Below are positions 13,710 through 62,087 of a stretch of DNA of 64,000 bases, piece by piece. The stretch is from a virus (Duplodnaviria > Caudoviricetes), in IMG/VR virus record IMGVR_UViG_3300030012_002750, positions 516 through 64,515 of that record. One strand, written 5' to 3'. The translations under genes were made by a program, and so were the position numbers. The notes under the pieces are model-generated. The model had not been told where the DNA came from and did not search any database. It worked only from the letters and a program-made list of their open reading frames with translations. Position 1 is the first letter of the stretch. Each line of letters begins with the position of its first letter.

Positions 13710-15330
13710 AACATGGGAAATAGAATGGAATAGTAGTATGCTGGAACATGGTCGCGACTTAGGGACTATGGAATTTATTTTTGCAAAAGGCGGCACCATC
13801 GCGGATATGAACTATGTTATGTTTGATGTTCAAGACACCACTTGGGAACCTCTCATCAAGGCTGTTGCGGAGCGCGACAACTCTCACCCCGACATCATTC
13901 GGAAGAATGTTCCACAACAACCGATATTCGGTATGCCTAATGAACAATTTAGACCTGCTGTTCCGGCGGCGGGAACTGCTGTCGCGCCAAACCCAAGAGC
14001 GGCGAAGCAAGCAAACCGCGCTATGCGTTCCGCCCAAGCAGGTGAAGCAGTCCGTGGTGGTAGCACTAAAGTTGGAGATTTAGCGAATGCTGGTTTTTAC
14101 GGCCAAGCCGCTATGCAAGCGGGTAAGAATATCTTTCAAGGAATGAAGGACCGAAGAGCCGCGAGAGCCGCTGACACTTCTAAAGAAGGAGGTATGCGAC
14201 AACGCATGGGTGATTTCATGGGTAAGGTTGGTCGTGGAATTAGCGACTTACGACATGCCCCACAAGCCGCTATGCAATCATTTAGAGATAGCCGCGCAAG
14301 AAGCGAAGATGAAGCACGAAGAAATACACTTGAAACTGGTCTTGGTCGCGGACAGCGACAAATTCAAGACGCAGAACGCAGAAATGTTCCGGGTAGTCAA
14401 AACTTTGACACAAATATGGATAGAGCGCGGGGAGCCATCAATCAAGGACTTGCTCGCGACTACAACATCAATGTTCCAACCGATAGTGAAGGCAATCCAA
14501 CTATGACTGTTCAAGACGCTATGCGTGATGAAATTAAACGGATTGGTGATAGACGCGCTGAACCAAAAGAAGGATTCCTCGCTGGTATGAAGCGACGCGG
14601 TGAAGAGCGACGAGCAAGGAATCAAGCACAAAAAGAAGGAGCGGCATACGCACCTTCTAATGTCGTGCCGGAAGCAGAACCGGAGCCACCAGCAATGCCG
14701 GAACCACCAACACCCGAAGCGGAGCGAGCGGCTAATACTGATATAGTGCCGAAAGAAGAAGAAGAAGAATTTGTATTCAACAATCCGCAAAGCGGACCCG
14801 AAACAGGAACACCACCACAAGACGCGGGGCAACCAATGAAGGTTGAACCCGAAACCGCTACGGCGACTGAACCAACATTTGGACAAAGGTTTGCTAACGA
14901 GGCTGGTATGAAATTAGGTGCAAACGCAGGTGATAGAGTCGCGGGTGGGTTAGATAAAGTGTATGCTCAACACCAAAAAACCCCATTCGCTAATTACGAA
15001 GATGCAATGCAAGCCATGTTGCAAGGTGGTGTAGGAACAAAAGGTATGATTGACGCTGGTAAGTTTAGTGGTAAAACAGGAAAGGCTGTTGAAGCGGCTT
15101 TAATAGAAATGGGTTATACTCCGGCACAAGCAAAGGCTATTGACCAAGCCGCGAAGCAAGGTAATCCCGATGCAAAAGAGATTGTTGAAGAAGCAACAGG
15201 TGAAGAAGAATTCCAATTTAATAATCCCGATATGGCAAGTGAAATGGCGGATATAGGCAACTTTGGTCTAAGTGAAGATAATCACAAAGCGTCGTGGAAT
15301 TCACTATTAAAAGGGTTAAATATTAGGTGA
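13702..15330 (+). CDS. Ala/Gly/Arg-rich hypothetical protein; possible internal virion protein
   Basis: SD GGAGGTG before ATG 13702; internal repeat EEEF(V/Q)FNNP; ends SWNSLLKGLNIR. Confidence 0.8.
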   Translation: MVETWEIEWNSSMLEHGRDLGTMEFIFAKGGTIADMNYVMFDVQDTTWEPLIKAVAERDNSHPDIIRKNVPQQPIFGMPNEQFRPAVPAAGTAVAPNPRAAKQANRAMRSAQAGEAVRGGSTKVGDLANAGFYGQAAMQAGKNIFQGMKDRRAARAADTSKEGGMRQRMGDFMGKVGRGISDLRHAPQAAMQSFRDSRARSEDEARRNTLETGLGRGQRQIQDAERRNVPGSQNFDTNMDRARGAINQGLARDYNINVPTDSEGNPTMTVQDAMRDEIKRIGDRRAEPKEGFLAGMKRRGEERRARNQAQKEGAAYAPSNVVPEAEPEPPAMPEPPTPEAERAANTDIVPKEEEEEFVFNNPQSGPETGTPPQDAGQPMKVEPETATATEPTFGQRFANEAGMKLGANAGDRVAGGLDKVYAQHQKTPFANYEDAMQAMLQGGVGTKGMIDAGKFSGKTGKAVEAALIEMGYTPAQAKAIDQAAKQGNPDAKEIVEEATGEEEFQFNNPDMASEMADIGNFGLSEDNHKASWNSLLKGLNIR

Positions 15331-16934: not shown

Positions 16935-17095
16935 AACTGAAAAAAGACAAATGTTGTTGTGGCGGAACTAAAGATACGCCTTGCGTTTGTATGATTGAAG
17001 GTAATCAATGTTCTGCTAAAAAACCTAAATGCCCTTGTTATAGATTAATGGATAAACAAAAAACGACTTTGAAAAAGATGGTGCGCGTAGTATGA
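16931..17095 (+). CDS. 54-aa Cys/Lys-rich microprotein (8 Cys), not in the ORF track
   Basis: Manual translation MKLKKDKCCCGGTKDTPCVCMIEGNQCSAKKPKCPCYRLMDKQKTTLKKMVRVV; ATGA overlaps with both flanking genes. Confidence 0.7.
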   Translation: MKLKKDKCCCGGTKDTPCVCMIEGNQCSAKKPKCPCYRLMDKQKTTLKKMVRVV

Positions 17096-17769
17096 CAGTA
17101 GAAAAAAACTTGAATCGTTGGTTTAAGGAGAAGTGGGTCGATGTTTCTCGTAAAAATAAAGACGGCTCACACCCTCCATGCGGTCGAAGCAAAGCCAAGA
17201 CTTCAAGCAAAGGTTATCCTAAATGTCGTCCTTCCGTCAAGGTATCAAGTAAAACTCCAAAGACTTCCGGCTCTATGTCCGAGGGTCAAAAACGCGCGGC
17301 AACAAAACGCAAGCGCAGTAAAAAACAAGGTGTGGGTGGGAAGCCCACGGTGGTAAAAATGGAATATGAATACATTATGCACGAACCAATAACAGCAGAA
17401 GAGTTAGCGATGATGAACGACGAAGATATAGCGAAAGAGGTATCTTTTTGTGATTGTTGCTCACCGTTTGACATAGCAACTTCTGTATTGAAAGCCAAGA
17501 AAAAAAGCAAGCCATTTCATGGTTACAACCCGAATAAGCACAGTCGTAAAGGTGGGCTAAATGCCAAAGGACGCGCCGCCGCAAAGCGTAAGAGTGGTGC
17601 TAATCTTAAACCCCCTGTAACTACCAAACCAAGTAAATTAAAACCGGGCGGCAAGAAGGCTAAAAGGCGTAAATCATTTTGCGCGAGAATGAGTGGTGTT
17701 AAAGGACCGACCAGTAAAGGAGGCAAATTGACTCCTAAAGGTGCGGCGTTGAAAAGATGGAATTGTTGA
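17092..17769 (+). CDS. Fusion of two small basic phage domains (DUF5872-like and DUF6321-like) joined by an acidic linker
   Basis: N-domain LNRWFKEKWVD...PCGRS...YPKCRPS; C-domain GGLNAKGR...NLKPPV...RRKSFCARM...ALKRWNC. Family names are from recall. Confidence 0.7.
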   Translation: MTVEKNLNRWFKEKWVDVSRKNKDGSHPPCGRSKAKTSSKGYPKCRPSVKVSSKTPKTSGSMSEGQKRAATKRKRSKKQGVGGKPTVVKMEYEYIMHEPITAEELAMMNDEDIAKEVSFCDCCSPFDIATSVLKAKKKSKPFHGYNPNKHSRKGGLNAKGRAAAKRKSGANLKPPVTTKPSKLKPGGKKAKRRKSFCARMSGVKGPTSKGGKLTPKGAALKRWNC

Positions 17770-22212: not shown

Positions 22213-25200
22213 GTGCGCGAAGATGCTTTTCAATATCATCAACGCGTGGTAAATGATTTTGCGCAAGCGATTATCAACAAACAAGATGCTCGCGACGAAG
22301 CAGTTAATGTTTTACTAAGTGCGAATAACTTAGAGAATCATGGGTATTTACATATACCGTTTAGAGAAGAAGCAGAAAACTTCCTCAAAGGACCACAATT
22401 ACAAATAAAAACTCCAACTGAAAAAGGCATGGAGAGAATTTTCTCCGGTGGTGAAACAAGGGCTGAACCTGCACCCCAGCGACACCACAAGCCACGACAG
22501 TTGTTCAATAGCGATAAATGGAGCGAGGCTAATGAGAATCTAAACGAAGATGAAATTGACAAGATGGTTAGAAAATTAGTAGGCTTCCGTTTTGAAGATA
22601 GTATCCCAAACCTAAGAGATTTTAGTTCCGATGAAATTATTGGCAACCATTCCAAATTCAAAACATTAGGTCTTCACCCTCCACGCGCAGGTGAAATTTC
22701 TTACAACGAGAAACCGTTATGGCAACAATTAGCGAGATTTCTTTTCAGTAATAACGGAGCAAACGCTGAAAGACTACACGATGCGATGGTGAAGACAGCA
22801 AAGGGTTTGCACCCTGTCTTGAAACAAATACATCATTTTGGTGATTGGAGAGGTAATAATGCTTCTATTCTAAAAATATTCAACCGTGGGTTAGAAGATT
22901 TCAAAGAATCGTTTGCTAAAAAGTTTGGACACGCGCACCCTGTATTATCACATGAGCAATTAAATGAGTTGTTTTTAAGACAAAAGTTTTGGGAGAATGA
23001 AGGTGTATCGCGCCAACAAGCGTTTGACATATTATACAATGACGGAGGATTCCCTCGTAGGTTTTCGGACGAAGGTGATACAACGCCTGTTGAACAGTTA
23101 CGCGCTATCGCTGACGCTAAAAGAAAAAGGCGGTCAAGACCAATGGAAGGTGAAGAAAATCATGGTATAGTTGGCGATGATGCTTGGCGATATGGTATTG
23201 CTTTACTTCCCTACGATGATATTTACAGAATTAAAAAGTGGCTTTTAACAACCAACGGTGGTATGAAAGATGATGGGACAGTTGGTAATGATGATGTGAT
23301 TAAAGATATTCTTGGACCCGACGCGAGAGGATACATGGCTAACCACGCGTTCATGATAGATAATATGCTTAACGAGTTATACGCTGGTAATCCTTTGAAA
23401 AACGGTATGAGTCATGTATTACCTAATCGCTTTACTGCTAAAGGAAGAGCAGAAATGAAGAAGCAAATGGCTCAAAGAGAACAAGATTTGACAAAGAAGT
23501 TTGAAAGAAACAATTGGTCTAATATTGATGCTGATACTCTTCAATCAGCGTTGGCGGGTTTTGACATAAAAACCATGGTGAAGAAATATGCTGATAAAGC
23601 CAATGCTGAAATAATAGATGATGGTGGTTTATATCCACATATTGACCATAGTGAATATGGCTCTTTCATTTACATGTCGCCCGACTTTGAACCTCGCGAC
23701 ATGAAAAGTTTGGTTAATCATAATTTCTTTGAAAAAGAAGAATTGAAAGACATAATAAAAGTAAGCGCGAATCTTGTTGGACAAAGTGAATACGCAGATA
23801 GTATTCGCGAAACTGTTGCTGGATATACTCATAGTCATAATGTTGATGGGGAGTTTAGTATGCTTGACAAACCCGAAGTAAATTTAACTCCGTTGGGTAT
23901 TTTGATGGAAGGTGTCGGCACCAAAAGAGGTAGTGCTGGTGGTGAATCCGGTGACTTTGGTGTTGCTTACGATAATGCTTTTCCTAATATCTTCCGCGTT
24001 GAGTTGCCCGAAACAGCGTTTATGATACCGAGTAGGGGCTTGAAAGAAGGTGGTGGTAAAGCAAAGTCGGTTGAACAACAAGATGTTTTTGACCCTCAAA
24101 AAGAAAATGATGAGGGGCAGGTTGAACAAGATTTGTTGAGAGCGATGGACAAATATAATGTTGATAATAAAGATGAGATACTTGCGCGTTTTAGAAATGG
24201 TGAAGTGGTTAGTCTTGATGTTCCGCGAAAAGTAAAGACCACAGATGACATCGTTAATGAAATCATCAATCCTTACTCAAATGAACTAAGAGAAGAAGAA
24301 GGAGTTGACCCGATAAGAGGTTTTGAAGGTATAGAGGCATACACCGAAGGTATGCCACAACTTAGAAGTCCATCATCATTAGGTATGAATTCTTTTATGA
24401 TGGCTCACAGCGATGCTTTGAATTTACTTCTAAGAAGCCATGTTGGGTTTTTGAGTAATGATAACAAATCCGTTCATAGCACAGAAGCCTCGTTAAAAAC
24501 ACCAAGATTCACCGCGCAGAAAGAAAGGATAAATAGTGAAAAAAGAGGCCGCAGAAGAATGCTTGACAGAAATCAAATGTCCGGTGGTAAAGGTTCGGGT
24601 CAAGCCGATACAGCAAGAGAATTTGGAACTAAGAAAGGTAATATTACCAATGAACTTAGAATGGCGATAGACGCGCTTTTACTTGGTTCGCACCATGCGC
24701 AACACATTCATGATGATGAATCGCTTGATTTGCTTACAGCGATTCTCAACGCGAAAAAAGGAGAAAGACTAAACATACTCAAGAATGGTTCACACAAAGA
24801 TATAATCGGTTATGGTGGAAGAACAGGCGAAGATATGGTTAAAGAAATACTGGAAGGTGTTGAAGAACCATCAAGGCTTGCGCTATACAAAAAAGAAGAT
24901 TTTGATAACCACCTCAACCATTTAATGAGTTTTGACAAACCCTATGAACTACCCGACCATCAAGTAAAAGGAATTAAATCAAGAAATAGATTGATTCAAG
25001 AGATTAAAAATCTCGACCACGAATATCAACAAGCGCGCGAAAATGATGATGTTGACAAGATGGCTACTATCCAACAACGGATAGAAGGTATGTTGAACTC
25101 CGAAGATGATGTTGTTGGATATATGCACGACGAAGATGAAAATAAATTATCCGCGATTGTTGTCGGACCAAGCCCTGCTTCGCTTATATCTCAACATGAA

Positions 25201-28182
25201 GCAATGTTAGGTAATGCTTTACAGATTGCTCGCAATGAAGGTGATGAGATTTCTCAAGAAGTCATTGAGAAAAGAATGCAACAACTCCGTCAAATTGCTC
25301 AACGCGAACCTTCTTACGAATCTTCAATAAAGAATGATGAAGACCATATACAGAATCACATTGACACTATCTTAGGTGTTGGAAAAATATTCAAAGCATT
25401 ACGCCCAGCGATTGAAAAAATATATCCTAATATATTTGCTAAAGACAATCGCGAAGCGCACGCGGCTACTGCATATACATTGAAACTCGCAGAACAAATA
25501 CTTACAATGTCGCCCGATGCGAGAAGAAAACTATTCACAGGAAAAGACAATATCCGTTTAGGTGGTAAAAAAGCATCATTTGATTTATCCCCACAAGAAG
25601 TTGATGAGTTAGAGGGAATAACAGCAATGCGCGCTACACACGAAGGCTCCGACTATGAAGATGCAGAAAAAATACTTGATAGCAAATTCGGCGGTGTTCA
25701 ACCAAAAGGATACAATGTGTTAACACATCTTGCTCAAAATGCTAATAACATCAATGAAGATGAAATAAGAATTTTTGATGAACTAATAAAGAATGTCAAA
25801 GAGTCAGCGAAAGAGCAAGGTATAACTTTCAACCAAGCATTTACCGCGAGATATTATCCTATCAATGAGGCTGGTAATCCTATTAGCGGCATAGAAAGAA
25901 AAAGATTGTTTGACATACTCAACATACCTAAGAGGGGTGGTAATAATTTTATCTATAACGAAGGTGGTATTTTTCACGGTCGCGAACAGTTAAGAAGTGG
26001 TGGTCAAAGTATTCTTGATAAAGACGGTAAAACAATCAGTCTTGACAAAGAGCGCGATTTAATTTTTAGACTATTACACAATACTCATCAACAAACAAGA
26101 AAGGGTAGTGATGTCGCTTTGGATTTCAAAAACATGAAGTTCTTTAAAAATAACAGACCCAACACTAAGAGCGTTATGAATTTTAATAAGTTAAAATCAA
26201 TTCAAAATATAGCAAGTTTGCTTAGTAGCGACACTAAAACTGATATGCTTGACAAATCAACAGCGGGTGAACAAGCAACCCCTATGGGTGGTCACAACTT
26301 TGACCACGCGCCTGTTGTTCCTATATTTACCAGCACACACAAAAAATTCCACTACGGTGAAGATACGAATGTGCCGTTTATTGTAAGACCGGACGCGTTG
26401 AATGATGGTATGTTGCTTCTTGAAGACGAAGGTAATCACGCCTATAACACACTACCTAAGCAAAGATTGTTTGCTCCGCGAAATTTGAGAAGATATGTCA
26501 ACCCTTCCCTCAAGCCGTTGACTACGGCTCAACAAGGAGATAGATATTATGGTGATTATGCGGAGTTTAGCGAAGGCCAAGAACCGAACCCGAACACCCG
26601 TATGGGGCAAGTGGTGAATCAAGCAATGGCTACTTCACCCGAACCATTACAGTCAACTGATGATAATATGAGATACTCGTCGCATGTTCTTGATGTCGCG
26701 CTTGATGACACCCTCATTATCAAAGACGATGGCAAACCACAACCTATCAAATTCATGCATCGCATTTTTGATTTAGAAGACATGACTCATCTGCGCGGTT
26801 TTACTGGTGATTGGGTCATAAGTCTATATCCGCATGGTGAACACATCATCGCTACTAAGAAAGATAACAAGATAAGCGCGTATAGCGTTGATGGTGAAGT
26901 TAAGTTAGATGATGTGTTTAATGAAGAGGTTAGCAAAGTGTATGAAAAAGATTTCATAGTTCACGCGATATTACATGATGGTATCATGACAGTAATTGAT
27001 TTACTTAAGACGGCTGATGAAGATACACATAACATGCCGACTAAAGACCGTATCCGCCACCTTCGCGCTCAATACGAATCCAGCGAACACATCAAGATGC
27101 CCGAACCTATCAACACAAAGCGTAGCGATGATGAAGGGTTGAAGACAGCAGTTGAAGGGTTGAGAAAAGAAAATGATATGGATATACTACTTAGAGATGC
27201 TAACGCTACATATATGAAAGGTGAACCTCGTCACCCTAAGTGGGTATTATTAACTCAAGAAAAAATGGTTGATGTTGTCATTTTATCCGCCAGCGGAAAA
27301 AATTACACGGTTGGTGTTGGTCCATTGATGCACCCCGAAAATTACGGTAAGCGCGCACAGCAAGTTGGTGATGAACATTACATGAATGTTGGAAGCGCGA
27401 AAGGACCACGCGGATTGAAGGTTGGAGATTTCGCTACTGTTAGTTGCACAGGTGTAAGCAGTTCTAAGAAAGATAATCCAGTCTATCGTATCCGGTCTGC
27501 TAAGATAACAGACAATGAACCACTTGCCGCTGACAGTGTTGAAACTCTCGCAATCATGTGCGGCGACCATCATATTCCTCAACAAGTCAATATGAAGAAA
27601 GGCAACATCACTATTCTATTCCCCGCATTTGATGATGAGGTTGTTTGTAAAACACGAAAAGAAGATGGACATTGGTTTGTTGAGCCTCAATCTTCAATTT
27701 GGGGCAACGATTACCTTGTCAAATTAGCACGCGACCAAGAAGTGTATTGGGGTGCAAAGGCCGCTTGGTTGTTGAAAAGAGATGAAGAAGAACCCGAATA
27801 CGACGAGGTTGACCCCGAACCACCAGCGGGTCATAGCAAGAAACCGAAGAAGGTGCTTGAAGAAGAAGAAGAAGTTATCAAGCGTGGGTTGGAATTGATT
27901 GAGCGCGGTCTTGAACATATTAGTAAAGAGAAGATTACAAGCACAGGAGTTCAAGGGTTGGGAATGGATTATGCAACACCCGATGAATCACCGCGAGGAC
28001 CAACACAAAATATACGCGACAATACTATGCCCGACTTTGACCCCCAATCGCGAACAGATGATGAATTAAAACCTGCTACTAAGAAAAAAACCAAGCGACT
28101 GCGAACAAGTCAAGGCGAAACTGCGCGTCTTGAAGACGATGGAGTTGTCGCGATTGAGAACAGTTCCATTGATATACAATGA
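22213..28182 (+). CDS. 1989-aa protein with a C-terminal degenerate ATP-dependent DNA ligase-like (NTase plus OB) region
   Basis: About 26750-27570 follows ligase motif spacing: WVISLYPHGEH (I), FIVHAIL (III), TVIDLL (IIIa), DILLRDANATYMKG..HPKWVLL (IV/V), VDVVIL..YTVGVG (OB). Confidence 0.75.
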   Translation: MREDAFQYHQRVVNDFAQAIINKQDARDEAVNVLLSANNLENHGYLHIPFREEAENFLKGPQLQIKTPTEKGMERIFSGGETRAEPAPQRHHKPRQLFNSDKWSEANENLNEDEIDKMVRKLVGFRFEDSIPNLRDFSSDEIIGNHSKFKTLGLHPPRAGEISYNEKPLWQQLARFLFSNNGANAERLHDAMVKTAKGLHPVLKQIHHFGDWRGNNASILKIFNRGLEDFKESFAKKFGHAHPVLSHEQLNELFLRQKFWENEGVSRQQAFDILYNDGGFPRRFSDEGDTTPVEQLRAIADAKRKRRSRPMEGEENHGIVGDDAWRYGIALLPYDDIYRIKKWLLTTNGGMKDDGTVGNDDVIKDILGPDARGYMANHAFMIDNMLNELYAGNPLKNGMSHVLPNRFTAKGRAEMKKQMAQREQDLTKKFERNNWSNIDADTLQSALAGFDIKTMVKKYADKANAEIIDDGGLYPHIDHSEYGSFIYMSPDFEPRDMKSLVNHNFFEKEELKDIIKVSANLVGQSEYADSIRETVAGYTHSHNVDGEFSMLDKPEVNLTPLGILMEGVGTKRGSAGGESGDFGVAYDNAFPNIFRVELPETAFMIPSRGLKEGGGKAKSVEQQDVFDPQKENDEGQVEQDLLRAMDKYNVDNKDEILARFRNGEVVSLDVPRKVKTTDDIVNEIINPYSNELREEEGVDPIRGFEGIEAYTEGMPQLRSPSSLGMNSFMMAHSDALNLLLRSHVGFLSNDNKSVHSTEASLKTPRFTAQKERINSEKRGRRRMLDRNQMSGGKGSGQADTAREFGTKKGNITNELRMAIDALLLGSHHAQHIHDDESLDLLTAILNAKKGERLNILKNGSHKDIIGYGGRTGEDMVKEILEGVEEPSRLALYKKEDFDNHLNHLMSFDKPYELPDHQVKGIKSRNRLIQEIKNLDHEYQQARENDDVDKMATIQQRIEGMLNSEDDVVGYMHDEDENKLSAIVVGPSPASLISQHEAMLGNALQIARNEGDEISQEVIEKRMQQLRQIAQREPSYESSIKNDEDHIQNHIDTILGVGKIFKALRPAIEKIYPNIFAKDNREAHAATAYTLKLAEQILTMSPDARRKLFTGKDNIRLGGKKASFDLSPQEVDELEGITAMRATHEGSDYEDAEKILDSKFGGVQPKGYNVLTHLAQNANNINEDEIRIFDELIKNVKESAKEQGITFNQAFTARYYPINEAGNPISGIERKRLFDILNIPKRGGNNFIYNEGGIFHGREQLRSGGQSILDKDGKTISLDKERDLIFRLLHNTHQQTRKGSDVALDFKNMKFFKNNRPNTKSVMNFNKLKSIQNIASLLSSDTKTDMLDKSTAGEQATPMGGHNFDHAPVVPIFTSTHKKFHYGEDTNVPFIVRPDALNDGMLLLEDEGNHAYNTLPKQRLFAPRNLRRYVNPSLKPLTTAQQGDRYYGDYAEFSEGQEPNPNTRMGQVVNQAMATSPEPLQSTDDNMRYSSHVLDVALDDTLIIKDDGKPQPIKFMHRIFDLEDMTHLRGFTGDWVISLYPHGEHIIATKKDNKISAYSVDGEVKLDDVFNEEVSKVYEKDFIVHAILHDGIMTVIDLLKTADEDTHNMPTKDRIRHLRAQYESSEHIKMPEPINTKRSDDEGLKTAVEGLRKENDMDILLRDANATYMKGEPRHPKWVLLTQEKMVDVVILSASGKNYTVGVGPLMHPENYGKRAQQVGDEHYMNVGSAKGPRGLKVGDFATVSCTGVSSSKKDNPVYRIRSAKITDNEPLAADSVETLAIMCGDHHIPQQVNMKKGNITILFPAFDDEVVCKTRKEDGHWFVEPQSSIWGNDYLVKLARDQEVYWGAKAAWLLKRDEEEPEYDEVDPEPPAGHSKKPKKVLEEEEEVIKRGLELIERGLEHISKEKITSTGVQGLGMDYATPDESPRGPTQNIRDNTMPDFDPQSRTDDELKPATKKKTKRLRTSQGETARLEDDGVVAIENSSIDIQ

Positions 28183-28199: not shown

Positions 28200-29651
28200 A
28201 TGGCGATTCTCGCGGCACCGTCTGTATCCAGCAACCCTGTCATTTTGAAGGGTATTGGTGACGACCTTGTTGTTGCTGGATATGCGTCTGTTGAGATGGT
28301 TGACAAGCAAGGCGATTTAATTACTCGCGGTGCTTTGAAAGATGCTTTTGGTAAATTTATGAAAGCAGATGGATTCCGCAATGTTCAACTTGCTCATTCT
28401 AATATTCAAGTAGGAAGTGTCATTCCTTCCTACACAGATTCAAGTGGTCGTGTTTGGAAGTCCGAAGTGGACGACACAGGTATGTTTGTAGTTATCAAAC
28501 TACGCGGCGACATAGAGAAGGCACGCGAAGTGGCTTCCGAAATCCGCAAAGGGAACTTGCGCTCGTTCTCTATCGGCGGTCAAGCATTTGAGCGCGTTAA
28601 CAAGAGCGACCAAACTCGCGGTGATTACCGCGAAATCCGTCGTATGGAACTCCATGAGGTTACAATTTGTGAGAAGGGTATCAACCCCGAAGCGCAATTT
28701 AGGATTCTCAAGGAGGACAAAGGTGATAATATGACTAACACAATGAGCGAATTGCAAAGTGTCCTTGAACGCTTGTCAAAGAAACTTGACGACAAGGACA
28801 AAGACAAGGAAAACGATAATGACAAGGCTATGATGGCTGATGACAAAAAGAAAGATGATAAAGAGTCCAAAAACAAAGGCATTGAAGACCTTCTTGACGC
28901 GCCCGATAAAAAGGACGAGGACGATGACGGCAACATGACGGAAACTCTTCGTGAAGCGCGACAAGACAAGAAGAAAGATGACGATGACGAGGACATGGAA
29001 GACATGAACTATGGAGATGATGATATAACAAACAAAGCAGATGATATGATAACGAGCGATTATTTGACTTGGTTAGAGCAGACCGCAAAAGGCGCAGGTT
29101 TTGACCCGTCTGCGGCGCGCGACCATTTCAATAAAGGATACGGACCGGGCGAAAGTGCATTTGACATGCGTGGACAAGGTTCTCTTGAAGGAGCAGGTGA
29201 AGACGACTCCGGTAAGAGGCCACAACCAAACTTTGGTTCTGCTCCAACAGGAAATAAGAATGTAATTAAGGGCGACTACCTAAACGCACACAATGTTTCA
29301 CCAAGTGAAATAGAAGCGGCGTATGAAGTGTATAAAGCGGCGGCAATGGAACAACAATTCAAGGCTGACCTAAACAACAACTTCACAGACAGGTTCCTAA
29401 AAGAACAAAAGCAAGAAGCAGATGCGATAGCAAAGCAAGACTTTGACGCTCGCGCACCTCTTGTTGAACTACAAAAGGCTGTTCTTGCGCTAAACGACAG
29501 AATTGACAATGTTTCCTCAACAGCAACAACAATAGCAAAGTCCGCTAACAGCGCGACTGTTACAATTCCCGAAACTACTGAATTAGCATCAATGTCGTGG
29601 GACGATGTCCACCGACTTGCTAACAAGGCGTTGAAGGGAGGTGAATACTGA
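28200..29651 (+). CDS. HK97-type prohead protease fused to scaffolding domain
   Basis: VAGYASVEMVDKQGD, LAHSN, LRSFSIGG, LHEVTICEKGINPEA; acidic coiled-coil C-terminal region; directly precedes the MCP. Confidence 0.92.
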   Translation: MAILAAPSVSSNPVILKGIGDDLVVAGYASVEMVDKQGDLITRGALKDAFGKFMKADGFRNVQLAHSNIQVGSVIPSYTDSSGRVWKSEVDDTGMFVVIKLRGDIEKAREVASEIRKGNLRSFSIGGQAFERVNKSDQTRGDYREIRRMELHEVTICEKGINPEAQFRILKEDKGDNMTNTMSELQSVLERLSKKLDDKDKDKENDNDKAMMADDKKKDDKESKNKGIEDLLDAPDKKDEDDDGNMTETLREARQDKKKDDDDEDMEDMNYGDDDITNKADDMITSDYLTWLEQTAKGAGFDPSAARDHFNKGYGPGESAFDMRGQGSLEGAGEDDSGKRPQPNFGSAPTGNKNVIKGDYLNAHNVSPSEIEAAYEVYKAAAMEQQFKADLNNNFTDRFLKEQKQEADAIAKQDFDARAPLVELQKAVLALNDRIDNVSSTATTIAKSANSATVTIPETTELASMSWDDVHRLANKALKGGEY

Positions 29652-30799
29652 TGGCAAGAAATTATGTAAGAACAGTTCAAGACATGGAAAGATACTACTA
29701 CGGCGGAGCATCGCAGACAGGATATACCTACGGCTCCGGTGACATACTAAAGGCAGATGCGCCTCTACTATCATCCACAGCCGGAACATACCAAGCAATA
29801 TACGGCAGAAAAGTATGGTCGCAATTGAATCAAGAATTCAATGCATTTTCTATACTACCAAAGAAGCCGTGGGAAAGAAGTGGATGGAGAATCCTAACTG
29901 GTCGTGCTGACTTTACCAAAGGTGGAGGAATCGCGGAGAACGGAACACTACCGGACACAAGCAGACCGGAATTCCTACATGTAGCCGCAAAGCCAAAGAC
30001 CATCGCGCACACTTTTGACCTATCCGAAGTGAGCATGTTCTTGTCCGACAAGGACGATGGTTTGGGCGATGTCCGACAAGTCTTGAAAGAAGAAATGGGT
30101 AAGCATCACGCTGAACACATTAACAGAATGCTTCTTGAAGATGTTGACACACCAGTTGGAAATGACTTTGAATCTCTTGATAGATTAACTTCCGACCCCG
30201 ACAAGATGACCACAGGAACAGGCCATGTAAGCGCAACTACTGACCACGACATTTACTCCATTACTCGCGACGGAAGTGCAGATTTCCACAGCGCGGAAGT
30301 TGATGTTTCAGCAAGTTCAAGCACTAACAGAAACCTATCTTTAAACCAACTTGACGGATTGTTCCAGCAACTATGGACTCGCGGTGGTAATCCAAAGGTT
30401 ATGCTAACTGGATATGATACTCTAATGAGAGTTCAGCAGTTGCTACAATCCCAACAAAGATTCATGGACAGCAAGAGAATCACACCAACCTATAACGGTG
30501 TAAAGGGTGTTCCGGGGCTTGAGGCTGGTTTCATTGTGGCTACCTATAATGGTGTCCCAATTATCCCAACCAAAGACATGCCTCAAGATGGAGCGGGTTC
30601 AATATCCCGTATGTATTATCTTGACACAGATTACCTATGGTTCCAAACTGCTATCCCAACTCAATATTATGAATCCGGTATAGAAACTGGCGACCCATTC
30701 GCGATTAACCGTCTTGGACAAGAGGGGCTTTACAGAACTATGGGAGAACTATGGTGTTCTTTCTTTGGTGCAAGTGGTAGCATTCGTGACTTACAATGA
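29651..30799 (+). CDS. Major capsid protein (HK97 fold, halovirus/magrovirus-like)
   Basis: 382 aa immediately after the protease; YGRKVWSQLN, LPKKPW..SGWR, FESLDR, YNGVPIIP, YRTMGEL motifs. Confidence 0.9.
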   Translation: MARNYVRTVQDMERYYYGGASQTGYTYGSGDILKADAPLLSSTAGTYQAIYGRKVWSQLNQEFNAFSILPKKPWERSGWRILTGRADFTKGGGIAENGTLPDTSRPEFLHVAAKPKTIAHTFDLSEVSMFLSDKDDGLGDVRQVLKEEMGKHHAEHINRMLLEDVDTPVGNDFESLDRLTSDPDKMTTGTGHVSATTDHDIYSITRDGSADFHSAEVDVSASSSTNRNLSLNQLDGLFQQLWTRGGNPKVMLTGYDTLMRVQQLLQSQQRFMDSKRITPTYNGVKGVPGLEAGFIVATYNGVPIIPTKDMPQDGAGSISRMYYLDTDYLWFQTAIPTQYYESGIETGDPFAINRLGQEGLYRTMGELWCSFFGASGSIRDLQ

Positions 30800-34202: not shown

Positions 34203-34632
34203 ATCTGTTGAACTAATTAAAAAAATTCTTAGCGATGGATGGAATCGCGGCAACACAGACCAGCGAACACCTATCATTGAAGACATTACTACGGCCGAGG
34301 CTGGGCGTGGTAAGCGGTTTTCTCTTGCTAACAAAGACGCTATATATCTTTATGAAACTGTCCACAATGAAGAACAGCCGGAAGTGTTCTATGATTTTGT
34401 CCACACGCGAATTAATATCACGGTTGATGCGCGAACAATGAGCGGGAGAAAGCATCTCATGAAGATGGAAGATGAGATTCGGCGCATCGTGCATAGTCAA
34501 AGAAAGGGTGATGGCGCGAATTTTGACCGATTACTCTATAAGATGCGGACTGACCTCTCCGACCGGACAAAGAGGTTGCATAGAATGACCTTCCAAGTGG
34601 AAATAGTTATCTTTAGTGAACTCATCGCGTGA
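34192..34632 (+). CDS. Putative tail terminator/completion protein
   Basis: 146 aa directly before the tail tube; alpha/beta pattern (RINITVDART..EDEIRRIV..RMTFQVEIV). Confidence 0.6.
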   Translation: MALESVELIKKILSDGWNRGNTDQRTPIIEDITTAEAGRGKRFSLANKDAIYLYETVHNEEQPEVFYDFVHTRINITVDARTMSGRKHLMKMEDEIRRIVHSQRKGDGANFDRLLYKMRTDLSDRTKRLHRMTFQVEIVIFSELIA

Positions 34633-34651
34633 AGTAAGGCGGACTGATAAT

Positions 34652-36568
34652 ATGGCATCAACAGTGTATAAAGGCGACATATCCGAAGTGACTTTCGGTA
34701 AAGAATGTGGGTTGGCATTAAAGCATGGTGGTTTCGGCGCACTTCAATTTGAAACTGATGCGACTGGAACAGTTATTACATTCAGCGGCGCGAATCAAGG
34801 TTTCTTTGACGGCTCATCTAATTTGAAATACCCTGTTGGTATGCTTGTTGGTTCACAACTTCGCGTTAATGGTGCTGGTAATTTTACTGATGACGACAAC
34901 GCTACGAAAGGCCATGTCTATACCATTGTTGCAAACAGCGGTGACAAAATTACCGTATCACCTGCTATGAAAGAATTAAGCACAACTTCAACTACTGGTG
35001 ATGAATTACTCATTGATACCATAGGAACACCAACAATTGATGTAGGAATGACTTTCAATGCTCAAGCCGCTTCTTCCGATGAGTCGGTTCTTACTGACCA
35101 ATTTATCGGTCTTGCGGCAACCGTCGCGCTACCGGAAACAAAAGTGGAAATTAGACGCTCTCACATTGTCGGTGTTGGTCGTGATGTTGTTATTCAAGAA
35201 CCACAGCGATTTTCTAACGAGGGTGGCTCTCTTGAAACAATGATGAACAGCGCGCGTTGGTTGTATTATTCACTTGGGCGCGAAGTAATTGATGTGCCTT
35301 CCACTACAATGACTGGCGACCCAACAGTAGGCGGCAAGGTGGACATCGCGGCTGGTGATACTTTTATTGCTTATACAGGTGCAATTTCTAACCTCGCCGT
35401 AGGTGAGTATATCATCGTTGTTGATAGCACAGCAACAGACTTCCCAAAGGACACACCTGCCGCCGCATCAAAAGAATGGGGTGCTGACGGACTTGGTATA
35501 GATATGGAGAATACCGAGCGAAATGAAATCCGTCAAGTGTTATACATAGACCCTAATTTGAGAAGAATACATGTTGATGAGCCATTTTACTTCAATCATG
35601 ATAGCGGCACTTATACTTTCAAGAGGGTCAAATACATGCCCGGTTCTGCCGACGGTTCACCAAATTTTGACACAACTGCCGCCTCTTTCGGAACAATCAC
35701 TAACCGCCAATCACGACTTTTATTCTCCGGTGCCACTCTCCCATCTTTTGCAATAGAATCCAGTATTCGCACACACAACACAGGCTCATTTAATGCAAGC
35801 GGTGAAGGTCTTGCGGAACCGGGTTCGGTGAATGATAGCAAGCAACTTACGCGCGTTTGGAAAGGTTGTAAGGTTAAAGACTTCTCTCTCGCGGCAGACG
35901 CAGATGCAGAAGTAAAACTATCAGTCAACTTCGATGCGCTTTATTGCTACACCGACACAGGCCGTCTTGAAGACACCAACAAAGGTGATAGATATACAGC
36001 ACACAGAATGTTTGAGAATACTGCTAACAGCACAGTAAATAGAAAGAAAGCAGGTATCGCGCCTAATACAGAAAAACCATTTTTCTTTTACAACGGGCAG
36101 ATTAGTTCATTTGGAATTAATATTGCACAAGTGACAAACTTTGCTCTAAGCGGCAACAACAACGCCGAAGCAATTTATACTATTCGCGGCAACAGTCAAA
36201 CAGAATCACGCAATAACGCTGGTAGTTCTCTTGAGCAAATACCATTTGGTGGGTCAAGAAATGCTAACATTATGATTGAAAAAGCAATGGAGTATGAATT
36301 ATCTATGACCGTCATTGCTTCCGACCCTCTCATTTGGCATGAATTTAGAACTAACAGAACTCATAATTTTACTGAACCTATTACACTAACTTTGACAAAG
36401 GCTGGCGCAGGGGCTAACCGCGAAGAAGTTATCATAGTCATTGATGATTACATCATTGATTCAGCACCACTACCGATACCGGAAGACAAGGGTGTTATTA
36501 AGTCCGAGTTGACTATAAAACCAAAGCATGTGAGGGTAATATCTCATGATGCTTTCCTACACATGTGA
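34652..36568 (+). CDS. Major tail (tube) protein with inserted domains
   Basis: YKGDISEVTFGKE at the N-terminus, TRVWKGCKVKDFSL, PFFFYNG, FALSGNNN; precedes chaperone and tape measure. Confidence 0.78.
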   Translation: MASTVYKGDISEVTFGKECGLALKHGGFGALQFETDATGTVITFSGANQGFFDGSSNLKYPVGMLVGSQLRVNGAGNFTDDDNATKGHVYTIVANSGDKITVSPAMKELSTTSTTGDELLIDTIGTPTIDVGMTFNAQAASSDESVLTDQFIGLAATVALPETKVEIRRSHIVGVGRDVVIQEPQRFSNEGGSLETMMNSARWLYYSLGREVIDVPSTTMTGDPTVGGKVDIAAGDTFIAYTGAISNLAVGEYIIVVDSTATDFPKDTPAAASKEWGADGLGIDMENTERNEIRQVLYIDPNLRRIHVDEPFYFNHDSGTYTFKRVKYMPGSADGSPNFDTTAASFGTITNRQSRLLFSGATLPSFAIESSIRTHNTGSFNASGEGLAEPGSVNDSKQLTRVWKGCKVKDFSLAADADAEVKLSVNFDALYCYTDTGRLEDTNKGDRYTAHRMFENTANSTVNRKKAGIAPNTEKPFFFYNGQISSFGINIAQVTNFALSGNNNAEAIYTIRGNSQTESRNNAGSSLEQIPFGGSRNANIMIEKAMEYELSMTVIASDPLIWHEFRTNRTHNFTEPITLTLTKAGAGANREEVIIVIDDYIIDSAPLPIPEDKGVIKSELTIKPKHVRVISHDAFLHM

Positions 36569-36578
36569 GGTGAACGAA

Positions 36579-36746
36579 ATGGATGCAATAAATCACGCGT
36601 GGACAATGTTAAAAGATTACCGCGGTGAAGAATATCAAAGTTTTTGTCAACGATGTCATGCACCAATAGACAGTAAATCATTACCTATGCTCGCAAAAAT
36701 AAGAGGGCTTTGTCTTGATTGTTATGGTGAAGAGCGAGGATATTGA
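36579..36746 (+). CDS. 55-aa zinc-finger microprotein with N-terminal AWxxLK tag
   Basis: SD GAGGTGA; MDAINHAWTMLK then CQRC...CLDC. Confidence 0.7.
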   Translation: MDAINHAWTMLKDYRGEEYQSFCQRCHAPIDSKSLPMLAKIRGLCLDCYGEERGY

Positions 36747-36756
36747 GGTGAATGAA

Positions 36757-37110
36757 ATGAATCCTATGGATAACGCATGGCTTTTATTAAAACAGAAATC
36801 GTATAGGCCAAAAGCGCATTTGCGACAGGCCGGGGCAGATTTAAGCGATAGACATAAGAAAGAAAGGGACCGATTATATATGCAACAATTTGCTGATGGT
36901 TTTGGACCTCAAGCACCTACGGAAGAAGAACAAGCCCAACAGAAGAATAATTTACGCGAAAGGCAAAAAATAGAACAAAGTGTTTTATCATCTCAAAGAT
37001 ACCCATACGGCTCTATGAGATATAGAGATGGGCCTTCGCCATTAGAACAAAGACGCTTACAAAGAGGGGAAGACGATTTAAAGCAAATGCAAATGCAACG
37101 CTATGAATGA
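36757..37110 (+). CDS. Hypothetical protein with N-terminal AWxxLK tag
   Basis: SD GAGGTGA; MNPMDNAWLLLK then a Gln/Arg-rich helical body. Confidence 0.75.
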   Translation: MNPMDNAWLLLKQKSYRPKAHLRQAGADLSDRHKKERDRLYMQQFADGFGPQAPTEEEQAQQKNNLRERQKIEQSVLSSQRYPYGSMRYRDGPSPLEQRRLQRGEDDLKQMQMQRYE

Positions 37111-37128
37111 AGCAAGGACTGTGATAAA

Positions 37129-37272
37129 ATGAACAATGTATTTAGAGAAAGTTGGGGAACGCTATTGAAAGAAAGTATGTGCAAAGGTAAAGATTGCAAA
37201 GGTTGTCGCGGTTGTAAGACCTGTCCTAAGTGCGAACCGAAAGGCTCAACTTGTGAAAAGGCCGGGTGTTAA
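37129..37272 (+). CDS. 47-aa metallothionein-like microprotein (8 Cys) with N-terminal WxxLLK tag, not in the ORF track
   Basis: MNNVFRESWGTLLKESMCKGKDCKGCRGCKTCPKCEPKGSTCEKAGC. Confidence 0.7.
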   Translation: MNNVFRESWGTLLKESMCKGKDCKGCRGCKTCPKCEPKGSTCEKAGC

Positions 37273-37275
37273 TTA

Positions 37276-37704
37276 ATGAAGCGCGATATGCACATTGGTG
37301 GTGAGCGACCACTTCACATTCGTGCTGTTGAGAAAGATACTTTCCTTGTTGAAGATGTATTTAACCCCGAAGCCGCGAAGACCGACGGCAACCCATTCCC
37401 CGAAGAACTGCAAGAAGAAGCAGTTGAAACGACCCCGCTTGAAGAAGAGGGTCCAACCGATTACGAGTCCATGACAGTTGAAGAATTAAAAGCACTTTTA
37501 CGAGCGCGCAGTCTTGATGTCAAGGGTAAAAAGGCGGAACTCATTACCCGCCTTACCGAAGCCGATACCCCCTCCGATGAGGCAGTTGAAGTGGAGGCTG
37601 TCGCTCCCTCCGTTGAGGCCGCGACCAGTAGTGAGGGAGTAAGTGATAACAATGCCGAAGATAGCAGACCCGATGAGCCTCTTGGTGAACAGCCAAGCGG
37701 TTGA
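37276..37704 (+). CDS. Acidic protein with SAP domain
   Basis: YESMTVEELKALLRARSLDVKGKKAELITRL fits the SAP consensus. Confidence 0.8.
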   Translation: MKRDMHIGGERPLHIRAVEKDTFLVEDVFNPEAAKTDGNPFPEELQEEAVETTPLEEEGPTDYESMTVEELKALLRARSLDVKGKKAELITRLTEADTPSDEAVEVEAVAPSVEAATSSEGVSDNNAEDSRPDEPLGEQPSG

Positions 37705-38014
37705 GCATGAAGTAAGAGCAGATGAAGAAGACCCCAATGTGGTCGTAAAAGTATGGGTGAAGGAATTGTCCTTCATGCAGTTGCAAGATGCAATCAAAAC
37801 TTTTGTGGCTATTAATGCGGCAGGTTCAGTTGATATTGACCTCGCGCAGTATTGGAAATACATGTTTGCCGAAGCAATTGAAAAGACCGAACCTCGGCTA
37901 TCTATCCCGCAGATGTTGTCGCTAAGACCTTACATCGCTAATCAAATAACTGCGTTGCTACCGCAACCACAGGACTTGATGAGCGGCCCTTTAGCGGGTG
38001 GGGCGACAGAATAG
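37652..38014 (+). CDS. Tail assembly chaperone (lambda gpG equivalent)
   Basis: 120 aa between tail tube and tape measure, with a slippery heptamer near its 3' end. Confidence 0.75.
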   Translation: MPKIADPMSLLVNSQAVEHEVRADEEDPNVVVKVWVKELSFMQLQDAIKTFVAINAAGSVDIDLAQYWKYMFAEAIEKTEPRLSIPQMLSLRPYIANQITALLPQPQDLMSGPLAGGATE

Positions 38015-38280: not shown

Positions 38281-38282
38281 AC

Positions 38283-61884: not shown

Positions 61885-62087
61885 TGGGTAAACTGCGCGA
61901 TAGATTAAGTCAAAAATGTCCAAGTTGTGGTCAAAATGTTGTCGCGCTAAGAATTGAAGGGCGATATGTTAATGACCGTGATACGCGTGTGCTTGTATGG
62001 GAATGCCCGTTATGCCAAAGATTATGGCGCGAGTCGCGATTAAATAAACCTAAATTTAAACACCACGGAGTTGAGCAAAATGTCTAA
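61884..62087 (+). CDS. Small zinc-ribbon protein
   Basis: CPSCG...WECPLC; ATG overlaps the upstream TGA. Confidence 0.75.
   Translation: MGKLRDRLSQKCPSCGQNVVALRIEGRYVNDRDTRVLVWECPLCQRLWRESRLNKPKFKHHGVEQNV

What the first reader, a model, noticed from the sequence alone, without database searches (positions are those of the whole stretch)
36579..37272. Three unrelated small genes share an N-terminal (A/S)WxxLK leader: a portable capsid-targeting tag
Seen: consecutive genes inserted between tail tube and chaperone begin MDAINHAWTMLK, MNPMDNAWLLLK and MNNVFRESWGTLLK, then diverge completely (Zn finger, Gln/Arg helix, Cys-rich peptide). Related strings occur elsewhere: MDPAWVLLKG and MDAAWALLKG (62080 ORF), KASWNSLLKG and TTWEPLIKA (13702), KAAWLLKR (22213), DDAFESIRKA (10651), NAAFGYLEKK (16734) and PFDIATSVLKA (17092). 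Known: T4 internal proteins carry a short N-terminal capsid-targeting sequence removed by the prohead protease. Inference: this is a modular cargo-loading system in which any ORF that acquires the 12-14 aa tag is packaged, cleaved after Lys and injected into the host.
Basis: partly seen in the sequence, partly recalled or inferred. Interest (0 to 1): 0.85.

Follow-up and report, generated by a model that had tools for sequence, protein, structure and literature searches.

The report
Shared docking tag on magrovirus proteins
Many small, otherwise unrelated late genes of this ocean archaeal virus (a magrovirus) carry the same roughly 12-residue peptide, which is most likely a portable label that brings a fast-changing set of proteins into the virus particle, although neither loading nor cutting has been shown.

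Summary
Genes at 36579-36746, 36757-37110 and 37129-37272 begin with MDAINHAWTMLK, MNPMDNAWLLLK and MNNVFRESWGTLLK and then share nothing.

The contig is a group-A-like magrovirus. In relatives the consensus M-N-P-[MFIL]-x-x-[AS]-W-x-[LV]-L-K occurs in 123 non-redundant copies: 91 N-terminal, 24 internal, 8 C-terminal.

- **Real signal:** shuffled proteins gave 1 hit in 20 rounds against 19 real hits.
- **Peptide-level selection:** conserved residues use varied synonymous codons.
- **Late genes only:** 24 of 139 structural-arm genes carry it against 0 of 132 replicative-arm genes.
- **Lineage-specific:** it is absent from 50 kb of halovirus HVTV-1 and nearly absent from cellular genomes.
- **Variable cassette site:** the slot after the tail tube gene holds different numbers of tagged genes in different relatives.

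Best reading (0.5): a position-independent docking helix that recruits cargo to the assembling virion, like the T4 capsid targeting sequence. Packaging, cleavage after Lys and injection are untested. Internal and C-terminal copies argue against an obligatory cleaved leader.

This scan had already noted the same tag on other magrovirus DNA. I found no description in print.

The parts
36579..36746 (+). Gene 1, 55 aa. Tag MDAINHAWTMLK at 36579-36614, then a CxxC...CxxC zinc-ribbon-like tail.
   Evidence: Profile hit 21.2 bits. In the 5.8-billion-protein set, only itself and one 98% variant were found.
36757..37110 (+). Gene 2, 117 aa. Canonical tag MNPMDNAWLLLK at 36757-36792, then a Gln/Arg/Glu-rich tail that is probably disordered.
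   Evidence: Profile hit 24.4 bits. No Pfam or PHROG family. No usable ESM Atlas hit.
37129..37272 (+). Gene 3, 47 aa. Tag variant with two residues between Trp and Leu-Leu-Lys (ESWGTLLK, inside 37129-37170), then a Cys-rich peptide.
   Evidence: Belongs to a 13-member tail cluster in relatives. It is the commonest occupant of this slot. The gapless profile gives it only 0.8 bits.
36566..36581 (+). Junction repeat TGAGGTGAACGAAATG (stop codon, Shine-Dalgarno sequence, start codon). A second copy lies at 36744-36759.
   Evidence: Genes 1 and 2 together are an insertion of about 555 bases relative to L001 and L002, with its ends in this repeat.
62071..63999 (+). Charged ORF that runs off the contig end, with two internal tags (63196-63237 and 63508-63549) inside a repeat of about 24 residues.
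   Evidence: Profile hits 15.7 and 19.0 bits. The G001 orthologue has one internal tag.
13660..15330 (+). 556-aa protein, mostly disordered, encoded just upstream of the large terminase gene. C-terminal tag ASWNSLLKGLNIR (15289-15327) and a weaker internal TTWEPLIKA (about 13837-13863).
   Evidence: The C-terminal peptide is conserved: 43 of 53 loci match strictly and 10 carry close variants.
22213..28182 (+). 1989-aa protein between the portal and protease genes, with a shortened tag AAWLLK near the C-terminus (about 27763-27780).
   Evidence: shared with G001. No Pfam or PHROG family. The profile does not detect it.
17092..17769 (+). Very basic DUF5872 + DUF6321 protein with a decayed tag PFDIATSVLKA (17464-17496).
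   Evidence: Relatives carry full tags in front of DUF6321.
28200..29651 (+). Prohead protease (S78) fused to a scaffold-like C-terminal half. It is a candidate enzyme and partner for the tag. Conserved (I/L/V)(I/L)K at residues 15-17, 169-171 and 355-357.
   Evidence: AF2 model, mean pLDDT 54.
29651..30799 (+). Major capsid protein (HK97-like, SU10_MCP), a candidate partner for the tag. GDILK-ADAPL at residues 30-39 is conserved.
34616..36568 (+). Tail tube gene, the conserved left border of the variable slot.
37276..37704 (+). SAP-domain gene, the conserved right border of the slot, in the position of a tail assembly chaperone gene.
   Evidence: SAP, E 5.4e-15.

Best explanation
The motif [N/E]-P-[M/F/I/L]-[D/E/N]-x-[A/S]-W-x(1-2)-[L/V]-L-K is a short, probably helical docking peptide. 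It works wherever it sits in a chain.

A common partner made from the virion-gene arm recognises it. The peptide thereby brings a changing set of small, mostly disordered or zinc-binding proteins, and a few very large ones, into the assembling particle, most likely the procapsid. They could then travel with the DNA into the next host cell.

New cargo genes enter and leave at a few fixed slots between conserved structural genes.

**Shown here:** the tag exists, it is selected as a peptide, it is portable, it is confined to the late arm, and the slots turn over.

**Inferred only:** the partner, the packaging, any removal by the S78 prohead protease after Lys (my odds about 0.3), and delivery to the host.
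For: 1. **Real and selected as a peptide.**
   - 19 profile hits against 1 hit in 20 shuffle rounds.
   - At conserved residues the codons vary: Pro CCA 26, CCG 26, CCT 13; Leu at position 11 uses six codons; Lys AAA 58, AAG 23.
2. **Portable.**
   - 82 N-terminal carriers fall into 30 unrelated tail clusters.
   - Copies occur at the start, middle and end of chains.
   - One protein carries three tag-plus-zinc-finger repeats.
   - In relative G003 the tag sits directly in front of a Nudix domain that begins at residue 15.
3. **Late, virion arm only.**
   - 24 of 139 late-arm genes against 0 of 132 replicative-arm genes in three complete relatives, Fisher p 4.8e-8.
   - The best opposite-strand profile hit is 10.9 bits.
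4. **Lineage-specific.**
   - The best score in 50 kb of HVTV-1 is 4 bits.
   - There are 4 pattern matches in 596 Gb of cellular genomes. One is a likely viral fragment and three are tiny spurious ORFs.
5. **Cassette behaviour.**
   - In 48 loci the slot after the tail tube gene is 16 to 1186 bases long.
   - 36 of the 48 hold one to three tagged ORFs (my count from the listing).
   - Genes 1 and 2 are an insertion relative to a relative whose tail tube is 95% identical.
6. **Cargo looks like internal proteins.**
   - The tails have 20% VILMFWY against 29-32% in other proteins.
   - Several are very basic.
   - Giant proteins carry tags at their ends.
7. **Precedent.** T4 internal proteins use 10-19-residue targeting propeptides on diverged cargo (PMC9026906, passages).
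8. **Weak support for cutting after Lys.** Conserved (I/L/V)(I/L)K lies at the predicted domain borders of the protease-scaffold protein (after 171 and 357) and at MCP residue 34. The Lys-Ala-Asp there is shared with HVTV-1.
Against: - No virion proteome, no observed N-terminus and no measured binding exists for this virus group.
- Unlike the T4 sequence, the tag is often internal or C-terminal.
- The one tagged protein conserved across the lineage is encoded just upstream of the large terminase gene. It keeps five more conserved residues after the Lys. That fits a binding tail, perhaps for the terminase, better than a cleaved leader.
- The residue after Lys is variable.
- The tag profile gives about zero bits to the protease, scaffold and MCP segments that share (I/L)LK, so that likeness is only a tripeptide.
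- Residues 14-17 of the protease are modelled as a strand of its fold, not a leader. The model is of low confidence.
- The window's three genes lie among tail genes, not head genes.
- 80 of 80 N-terminally tagged proteins of this lineage have no Pfam family at or above its cut-off, so a host-directed activity is conjecture.
Confidence: 0.5

Rival explanations
1. The tag is a docking peptide for a hub that is not the capsid interior. Candidates are the large terminase or portal (packaging vertex), the tail or tape measure assembly, the virus-encoded chaperonin, or a host protein. Tagged proteins would then act in the infected cell during assembly and would not be packaged.
For: - The lineage-wide tagged protein is encoded directly upstream of the large terminase gene and carries the tag at its extreme C-terminus. 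From recall, that is where small terminase subunits carry their terminase-binding tails.
- The window's three genes sit between the tail tube gene and the tail chaperone position.
- All three complete relatives encode a chaperonin.
- The tag's position-independence fits a general short linear motif.
Against: - Disordered cargo needs no chaperonin.
- Tagged genes are spread over head, tail and end-of-arm slots, not tied to one machine.
- The tag is almost absent from cellular genomes, so it is not an obvious copy of a common host motif.
- Late-arm restriction fits virion association at least as well.
Confidence: 0.25
2. There is no portable tag. These are fast-diverging paralogues of one family of disordered virion or assembly proteins, such as scaffold-like or DNA-condensing proteins. 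Only the N-terminal helix is constrained, so the tails merely look unrelated.
For: - The tails are low in hydrophobic residues and rich in E, R, Q and P, a composition that loses detectable similarity quickly.
- Genes 1 and 2 share the same 16-base junction, which suggests local duplication.
- Some tags travel with a longer conserved segment. The segment after the second tag of the 62071 ORF recurs in a 12-member cluster of N-terminally tagged proteins.
- Internal tags share an extended upstream pattern.
Against: - The tag precedes clearly different folds and families: Nudix, DnaJ-type zinc finger, DUF6321, zinc ribbon, Cys-rich peptide.
- It occurs at N-terminal, internal and C-terminal positions, and at the ends of giant proteins.
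- There are 30 tail clusters among 82 proteins.
Confidence: 0.15
3. The shared start is a leader peptide of ribosomally made, modified peptides. A modifying enzyme would recognise it and it would then be cut off.
For: A conserved leader with hypervariable, sometimes Cys-rich cores (gene 3) resembles precursor families of such peptides (recalled).
Against: - Pfam and PHROG scans of 43 window proteins found no modifying enzyme or leader-recognition domain.
- Carriers reach 369 aa at the N-terminal position and thousands of residues for terminal tags.
- Many tags are internal or C-terminal.
- The genes lie inside the virion module.
Confidence: 0.03
4. The conservation is at the DNA or RNA level, as a recombination site or a translation-start element, and the peptide is a by-product.
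For: A 16-base stop/Shine-Dalgarno/start junction is repeated at cassette borders. A G-rich Shine-Dalgarno sequence precedes 69 of 82 N-terminal tags.
Against: - Synonymous codons vary freely at the conserved residues.
- The same peptide occurs in the middle and at the end of ORFs, with no start codon context.
Confidence: 0.02

Closest known systems
Capsid targeting sequence (CTS) of phage T4 internal proteins IPI-III and Alt (review PMC9026906, passages read)
   Same: - A short peptide shared by otherwise diverged proteins.
- The genes lie in variable loci.
- The cargo is small, abundant and partly basic.
- The virus also encodes a prohead protease.
   Different: - The T4 sequence is an N-terminal propeptide cut after Glu by gp21. 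Here the protease is of the S78 (HK97) type and any cut would follow Lys.
- Here the tag also works, or at least persists, inside and at the end of chains.
- The host is an archaeon.
- No sequence likeness is claimed.
- Packaging is unproven here.
Propeptides of ejection and inner-body proteins of giant phages phiKZ and SPN3US (PMC7411985 and PMC10052503, abstracts in the listings; figure legend in PMC9026906)
   Same: Many head-internal proteins are processed by the prohead protease at a short motif, and are packaged with the DNA and ejected.
   Different: Those cuts follow Glu and are made by T4-gp21-like proteases. No single portable tag shared by dozens of families is described in what I read.
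Cargo-loading (targeting) peptides of encapsulins (recalled, no call)
   Same: A short terminal peptide docks unrelated cargo to the inner face of an HK97-fold shell. It can be N- or C-terminal, and no cleavage is needed.
   Different: Encapsulins are cellular compartments without DNA, portal or tail. Their peptide motif is different. Binding of this tag to the MCP is not shown.
C-terminal capsid-targeting tail of the HK97 prohead protease, and scaffold C-terminal helices such as that of P22 (recalled, no call)
   Same: Same protease family (S78). Here the protease-scaffold protein and the small protein at 21504-21848 share their own conserved C-terminal helix (M-S-W, two acidic residues, V/I, H), presumably for capsid binding.
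   Different: That tail motif is not the tag: the tag profile gives it no score. The tag is carried by accessory proteins, not by the assembly machinery.

Membership tests
T4-type capsid targeting sequence system | One short peptide shared by proteins that are otherwise unrelated | tested here: met
   30 tail clusters among 82 N-terminal carriers. Different Pfam families follow the tag.
T4-type capsid targeting sequence system | The peptide is an N-terminal propeptide | tested here: inconclusive
   91 of 123 non-redundant copies are N-terminal, but 24 are internal and 8 are C-terminal.
T4-type capsid targeting sequence system | Carriers are built into the prohead core and are present in virions | not testable with these tools
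   No virion proteome of a magrovirus was available. The only indirect support is late-arm restriction.
T4-type capsid targeting sequence system | The prohead protease removes the peptide at a defined site | tested here: inconclusive
   An S78 protease is present. Conserved (I/L/V)(I/L)K lies at its own predicted domain borders and in the MCP N-terminus. However, the residue after Lys varies, C-terminal tags keep conserved residues beyond Lys, and there is no profile likeness.
T4-type capsid targeting sequence system | The peptide alone is sufficient to load a foreign protein | not testable with these tools
   Needs a tag-reporter fusion in reconstituted procapsids.
T4-type capsid targeting sequence system | Carrier genes lie in variable loci between conserved genes | tested here: met
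   The slot after the tail tube gene is 16-1186 bases long with 0-3 tagged ORFs in 48 loci. Insertion of genes 1 and 2.
T4-type capsid targeting sequence system | Descent from the T4 system (gp21-type protease, cut after Glu) | tested here: not met
   The protease is Peptidase_S78, HK97-type. The virus is an archaeal relative of HVTV-1. So it is an analogue, not a member.
Encapsulin cargo-loading peptide | The peptide binds the inner face of the HK97-fold shell protein | not testable with these tools
   No result that can be used for or against; see Tried and rejected.
Encapsulin cargo-loading peptide | The shell is a DNA-free cellular compartment | tested here: not met
   The window encodes terminase, portal, tail tube and tape measure proteins.
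RiPP precursor leader | A leader-recognising modifying enzyme is encoded nearby, and the carriers are short precursor peptides | tested here: not met
   No such family among 43 window proteins. The median carrier is 116 aa and the longest is 369 aa.
Magrovirus (order Magrovirales), group A-like | MCP related to halovirus MCPs; two divergent arms; family B DNA polymerase, thermosome-type chaperonin and SNF2 helicase on the replicative arm | tested here: met
   MCP is 34-35% identical to HVTV-1 and HCTV-1. The close relative G001 (MCP 91% identical to the window's) has Cpn60_TCP1, DNA_pol_B and SNF2. Group A features are described in PMC5434244 (passages). The window's own contig lacks the replicative arm.

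The most novel reading that the evidence does not exclude
Magroviruses, among the most abundant archaeal viruses of the surface ocean, run a programmable protein-packaging code. A 10-12-residue helix, readable at any position in a chain, loads dozens of quickly exchanged disordered, zinc-binding and giant proteins into an HK97-type capsid. The S78 prohead protease then trims them at (I/L)-L-K, the same site that divides its own protease, linker and scaffold parts. The released set is injected into Poseidoniales cells as a first wave of host-takeover or anti-defence factors. This would be the first such system in an archaeal virus, and one that arose independently of T4.
Probability: 0.25. Interest if true: 0.85.

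Novelty: new variant of a known kind. Interest (0 to 1): 0.65.

Why it matters
- **Unknown biology of an abundant virus.** Magroviruses infect uncultured Poseidoniales, a dominant group of ocean archaea. Most of their genes have no known function. A shared address tag would sort a large part of that dark matter into one functional class, virion-borne accessory proteins, and would point to the genes most likely to be involved in the arms race with the host.
- **Testable without the host.** Capsid protein, protease-scaffold and a tagged reporter can be co-expressed in a laboratory organism.
- **Evolution and engineering.** If it holds, targeting of cargo into HK97-type shells by a short peptide has arisen separately in T4-like phages, encapsulins and archaeal viruses. 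It would also give a compact tag for loading proteins into archaeal virus-like particles.

Tried and rejected
**Complex prediction**
It returned 'no answer': score 0.00 in two runs, and no controls were folded. This says nothing for or against binding.
- An earlier job with MCP, protease-scaffold and the tag failed on the machine.
- Portal, protease-scaffold and multimeric MCP were therefore never tested as partners.

**Second structure prediction**
- Helicity rests only on a hydrophobic-moment calculation. That was unconvincing: 1% to 25% of shuffles reached the observed value, depending on the copy.

**Idea that the tag copies the scaffold's C-terminal tail** (from earlier notes)
- In this lineage the tail (M-S-W-D-D-V-H-R-L-A) and the tag share only Ser/Ala-Trp and a later hydrophobic and basic residue. 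The tag profile gives the tail no score.

**HVTV-1 mature MCP N-terminus**
- The paper that might give it (PMC3592136) is not held. Two halovirus reviews had nothing on it.

**Other searches that gave nothing**
- PDB profile search with the MCP alignment: no match.
- ESM Atlas with gene 2: no usable hit.
- Notes of this scan by place, sequence and a second word set: nothing.

**RNA**
- One 151-base contig of a metatranscriptome library covers 36689-36837, and another covers 37467-37620. The tool warns that DNA can be present in such libraries, so this does not show transcription.
- Parts without cover mean nothing.

**Host mimicry**
- Rejected as the main idea, because the strict pattern is almost absent from cellular genomes. 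Looser host motifs were not searched.

**Literature**
- Term searches found no description of the tag in three magrovirus papers.
- No paper in the held library has both 'capsid targeting' and 'archaeal virus'.
- Supplements were not opened.
Full report
**What is there.** The window is almost the whole of a 64.5-kb viral contig. All of its long ORFs lie on the + strand. Family scans give the following genes:

| Coordinates | Gene |
|---|---|
| 15337-16737 | large terminase |
| 19278-21122 | portal |
| 22213-28182 | 1989-aa ORF, no known family |
| 28200-29651 | S78 prohead protease with a long C-terminal extension |
| 29651-30799 | HK97-like major capsid protein (MCP) |
| 34616-36568 | tail tube protein |
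| 37276-37704 | SAP-domain protein |
| 38274-39995 | tape measure protein |
| 41163-56651 | 5162-aa ORF |

The three genes of the finding fill the gap between the tail tube gene and the SAP-domain gene.

**What the virus is.**
- The MCP is 34-35% identical to those of the haloarchaeal siphoviruses HVTV-1, HCTV-1 and HCTV-5.
- There are 57 related viral contigs, with tail tube proteins 50-95% identical and lengths up to 118 kb.
- I fetched three complete relatives, G001 to G003. They are syntenic with the window over a structural arm of about 65 kb. They also carry a divergent arm of about 40 kb that the window's contig lacks.
- In G001 that second arm encodes a thermosome-type chaperonin, a family B DNA polymerase and an SNF2 helicase. 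These are features described for group A magroviruses of Marine Group II archaea (PMC5434244, passages).

**The motif is real and lineage-wide.**
- In the 14-kb tail-tube loci of relatives the same peptide recurs at the start of many small ORFs. The consensus is M-N-P-[MFIL]-[NED]-x-[AS]-W-x-[LV]-L-K, followed most often by Gly, Ala or Asn.
- I built a 14-position profile from 74 distinct copies. It gave 19 hits of 12 bits or more in the window's genome and the three complete relatives, all on the coding strand of the structural arm.
  - The best hit on any opposite strand was 10.9 bits.
  - Shuffling the residues of every ORF gave one such hit in 20 rounds.
  - Part of the training set came from these genomes. 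Several hits lie outside the training loci, for example at the far end of the G002 arm.
  - G003 has only weaker variants by the profile (best 11.2 bits). A looser pattern finds them.
- Over 268 loci (1.95 Mb) there are 123 non-redundant hits: 91 N-terminal, 24 internal and 8 C-terminal. In the first set, 69 of 82 N-terminal copies have a Shine-Dalgarno sequence.

**Selection acts on the peptide, not on the DNA.** At the conserved residues the synonymous codons vary widely. The peptide also occurs away from any start codon. This rules out a purely nucleotide-level element. A 16-base stop/Shine-Dalgarno/start junction is nevertheless repeated at the borders of genes 1 and 2 and may help cassettes to move.

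**Where the tag is found, and where it is not.**
- In the three complete relatives, 24 of 139 called genes of 60 aa or more on the structural arm carry the tag pattern. None of 132 on the replicative arm does (Fisher p 4.8e-8). Both gene lists come from a crude ORF caller and include some spurious ORFs.
- The structural half of HVTV-1 (50 kb) has nothing above 4 bits.
- A strict 36-base pattern found 33 stretches among 2.9 million viral contigs.
- A slightly looser pattern found 4 stretches in 596 Gb of cellular genomes. One is a 3.3-kb contig of an archaeal MAG encoding a tagged DUF6321 protein, probably a binned viral fragment. Three are ORFs of 13 to 40 codons in bacteria.

**What carries the tag.**
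- The 82 N-terminal carriers fall into 30 clusters once the tag is removed. Their median length is 116 aa, and 12 have two or more CxxC pairs.
- Their tails are poor in hydrophobic residues (20% against 29-32%) and rich in Glu, Arg, Gln and Pro.
- None of the 80 scanned has a Pfam family at or above its cut-off.
- In G003 the tag precedes a Nudix domain and DnaJ-type zinc fingers.
- One G002 protein has three tag-plus-zinc-finger repeats.
- Larger carriers:
  - The G003 orthologue of the window's first, 2102-aa ORF has a tag at both ends.
  - The 1989-aa protein next to the portal gene has a shortened copy near its C-terminus.
  - The 556-aa, mostly disordered protein encoded just upstream of the terminase gene ends in A-S-W-x-S-L-L-K-G-L-N-I-R. 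An ORF ending next to the terminase gene was found in 53 of the 80 loci fetched. Of these, 43 match a strict pattern. The other 10 have Gly before the Trp (7) or an extra residue (3).
- Gene 3 and this C-terminal peptide have two residues between Trp and Leu-Leu-Lys. Genes 1 and 2 have one.

**The slot is a cassette site.**
- In 48 loci the distance from the end of the tail tube gene to the next conserved gene ranges from 16 to 1186 bases.
- 36 of the 48 hold one to three tagged ORFs and 12 hold none (my count).
- A relative whose tail tube is 95% identical has only the gene 3 homologue. Genes 1 and 2 are a clean insertion of about 555 bases.
- Gene 1 has no relative in 5.8 billion proteins apart from a 98% variant.
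- Other slots lie between head genes and after the terminase gene.

**How it most likely works.** The data fit a short linear docking motif read by one partner that is made late. The closest known analogue is the T4 capsid targeting sequence. That sequence is a 10-19-residue propeptide. It carries diverged internal proteins, and engineered foreign proteins, into the prohead core, where the prohead protease removes it (PMC9026906, passages).

Points in favour of a virion destination here:
- restriction to the late arm;
- interleaving with structural genes;
- cargo that is disordered, basic or zinc-binding;
- tags on giant proteins in positions where other tailed viruses encode head-internal proteins (the last point is recalled, not tested).

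- A tag that persists in the middle and at the end of chains need not be a leader.
- In the terminase-adjacent protein the residues beyond the Lys are conserved as well.
- The residue after Lys is variable.

In favour of cutting after Lys there is only the following:
- (I/L/V)(I/L)K is conserved in the protease-scaffold protein at residues 15-17, 169-171 and 355-357, and in the MCP at 32-34.
- In a low-confidence AF2 model (mean pLDDT 54) the second and third sites fall at the ends of the disordered linker. The first is a strand of the protease fold.
- Lys-Ala-Asp at MCP 34-36 is shared with HVTV-1.
- The tag profile gives these segments no score.

I put the docking-to-virion reading at 0.5 and removal after Lys at about 0.3.

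**Rivals.**
- The terminase-adjacent C-terminal tag, and the tail-gene neighbourhood of the window's three genes, keep open a partner at the packaging vertex or in the tail. A non-virion hub such as the chaperonin that all three relatives encode also remains possible.
- A single family of fast-diverging disordered paralogues would explain part of the picture. It does not explain the tag on different folds and at all three positions.
- A modified-peptide leader and a DNA-level element are disfavoured.

**What is known.**
- Term searches found no description of this tag in three magrovirus papers.
- No paper in the held library has both 'capsid targeting' and 'archaeal virus'. Supplements and papers that are not held were not seen.
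- Earlier agents of this scan noted the same kind of tag on at least eight other magrovirus windows and reached the same T4-like reading.
- Their lead that Leu-Leu-Lys borders the virus's own head proteins is partly borne out here.
- Their lead that the tag copies the scaffold tail is not borne out in this lineage.

**Verdict.** I class this as a new variant of a known kind of system. It is an analogue of T4, not a member of that system, because the protease family and cut site differ.

Noticed in passing
window 21504-21848 and 28200-29651: The protease-scaffold protein and a 114-aa helical protein next to the portal gene end in the same conserved helix (M-S-W, two acidic residues, V/I, H, x, L/M, A). 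This is a second shared peptide, distinct from the tag, and probably the capsid-binding tail of the scaffold proteins.
   Followed up: partly
window 36566-36581 and 36744-36759: A 16-base stop/Shine-Dalgarno/start junction is repeated at the borders of genes 1 and 2. The two genes together are an insertion of about 555 bases relative to L001 and L002. This is a possible recombination handle for cassettes.
   Followed up: partly
window 41163-56651: A 5162-aa ORF in the tail module, 73% identical to its G001 orthologue and 45-46% to those of G002 and G003. It was too long for the family scans I ran, so its function is unknown.
   Followed up: no
window 37276-37704 and 37643-38014: A SAP-domain protein (Pfam E 5.4e-15) sits where tail assembly chaperone genes usually lie. 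An overlapping ORF follows it, as in chaperone pairs made by frameshifting.
   Followed up: no
window 17092-17769; G001 (L062): A very basic DUF5872 + DUF6321 protein. In G001 the two domains are separate genes, and a full tag follows DUF5872.
   Followed up: partly
window 66-6374; G003 (L070): A 2102-aa ORF without any known family opens the structural arm. Its 3038-aa orthologue in G003 carries a tag at both ends and follows five consecutive tagged genes.
   Followed up: partly
L059 13734-15227 (G001), with orthologues in G002 and G003: All three complete relatives encode a chaperonin of the thermosome/Cpn60 family (55% identical to one another). In G001 and G003 its gene is the first of the replicative arm, next to where the two arms diverge.
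   Followed up: no
window 17890-19281: A 463-aa protein between the terminase and portal genes has an HNH endonuclease-like segment (PHROG E 1.5e-11).
   Followed up: no
window 37275-37310: Contigs of a DNA run diverge from the window just at the end of gene 3. This suggests strain variants of the slot within one sample series (table 7).
   Followed up: no
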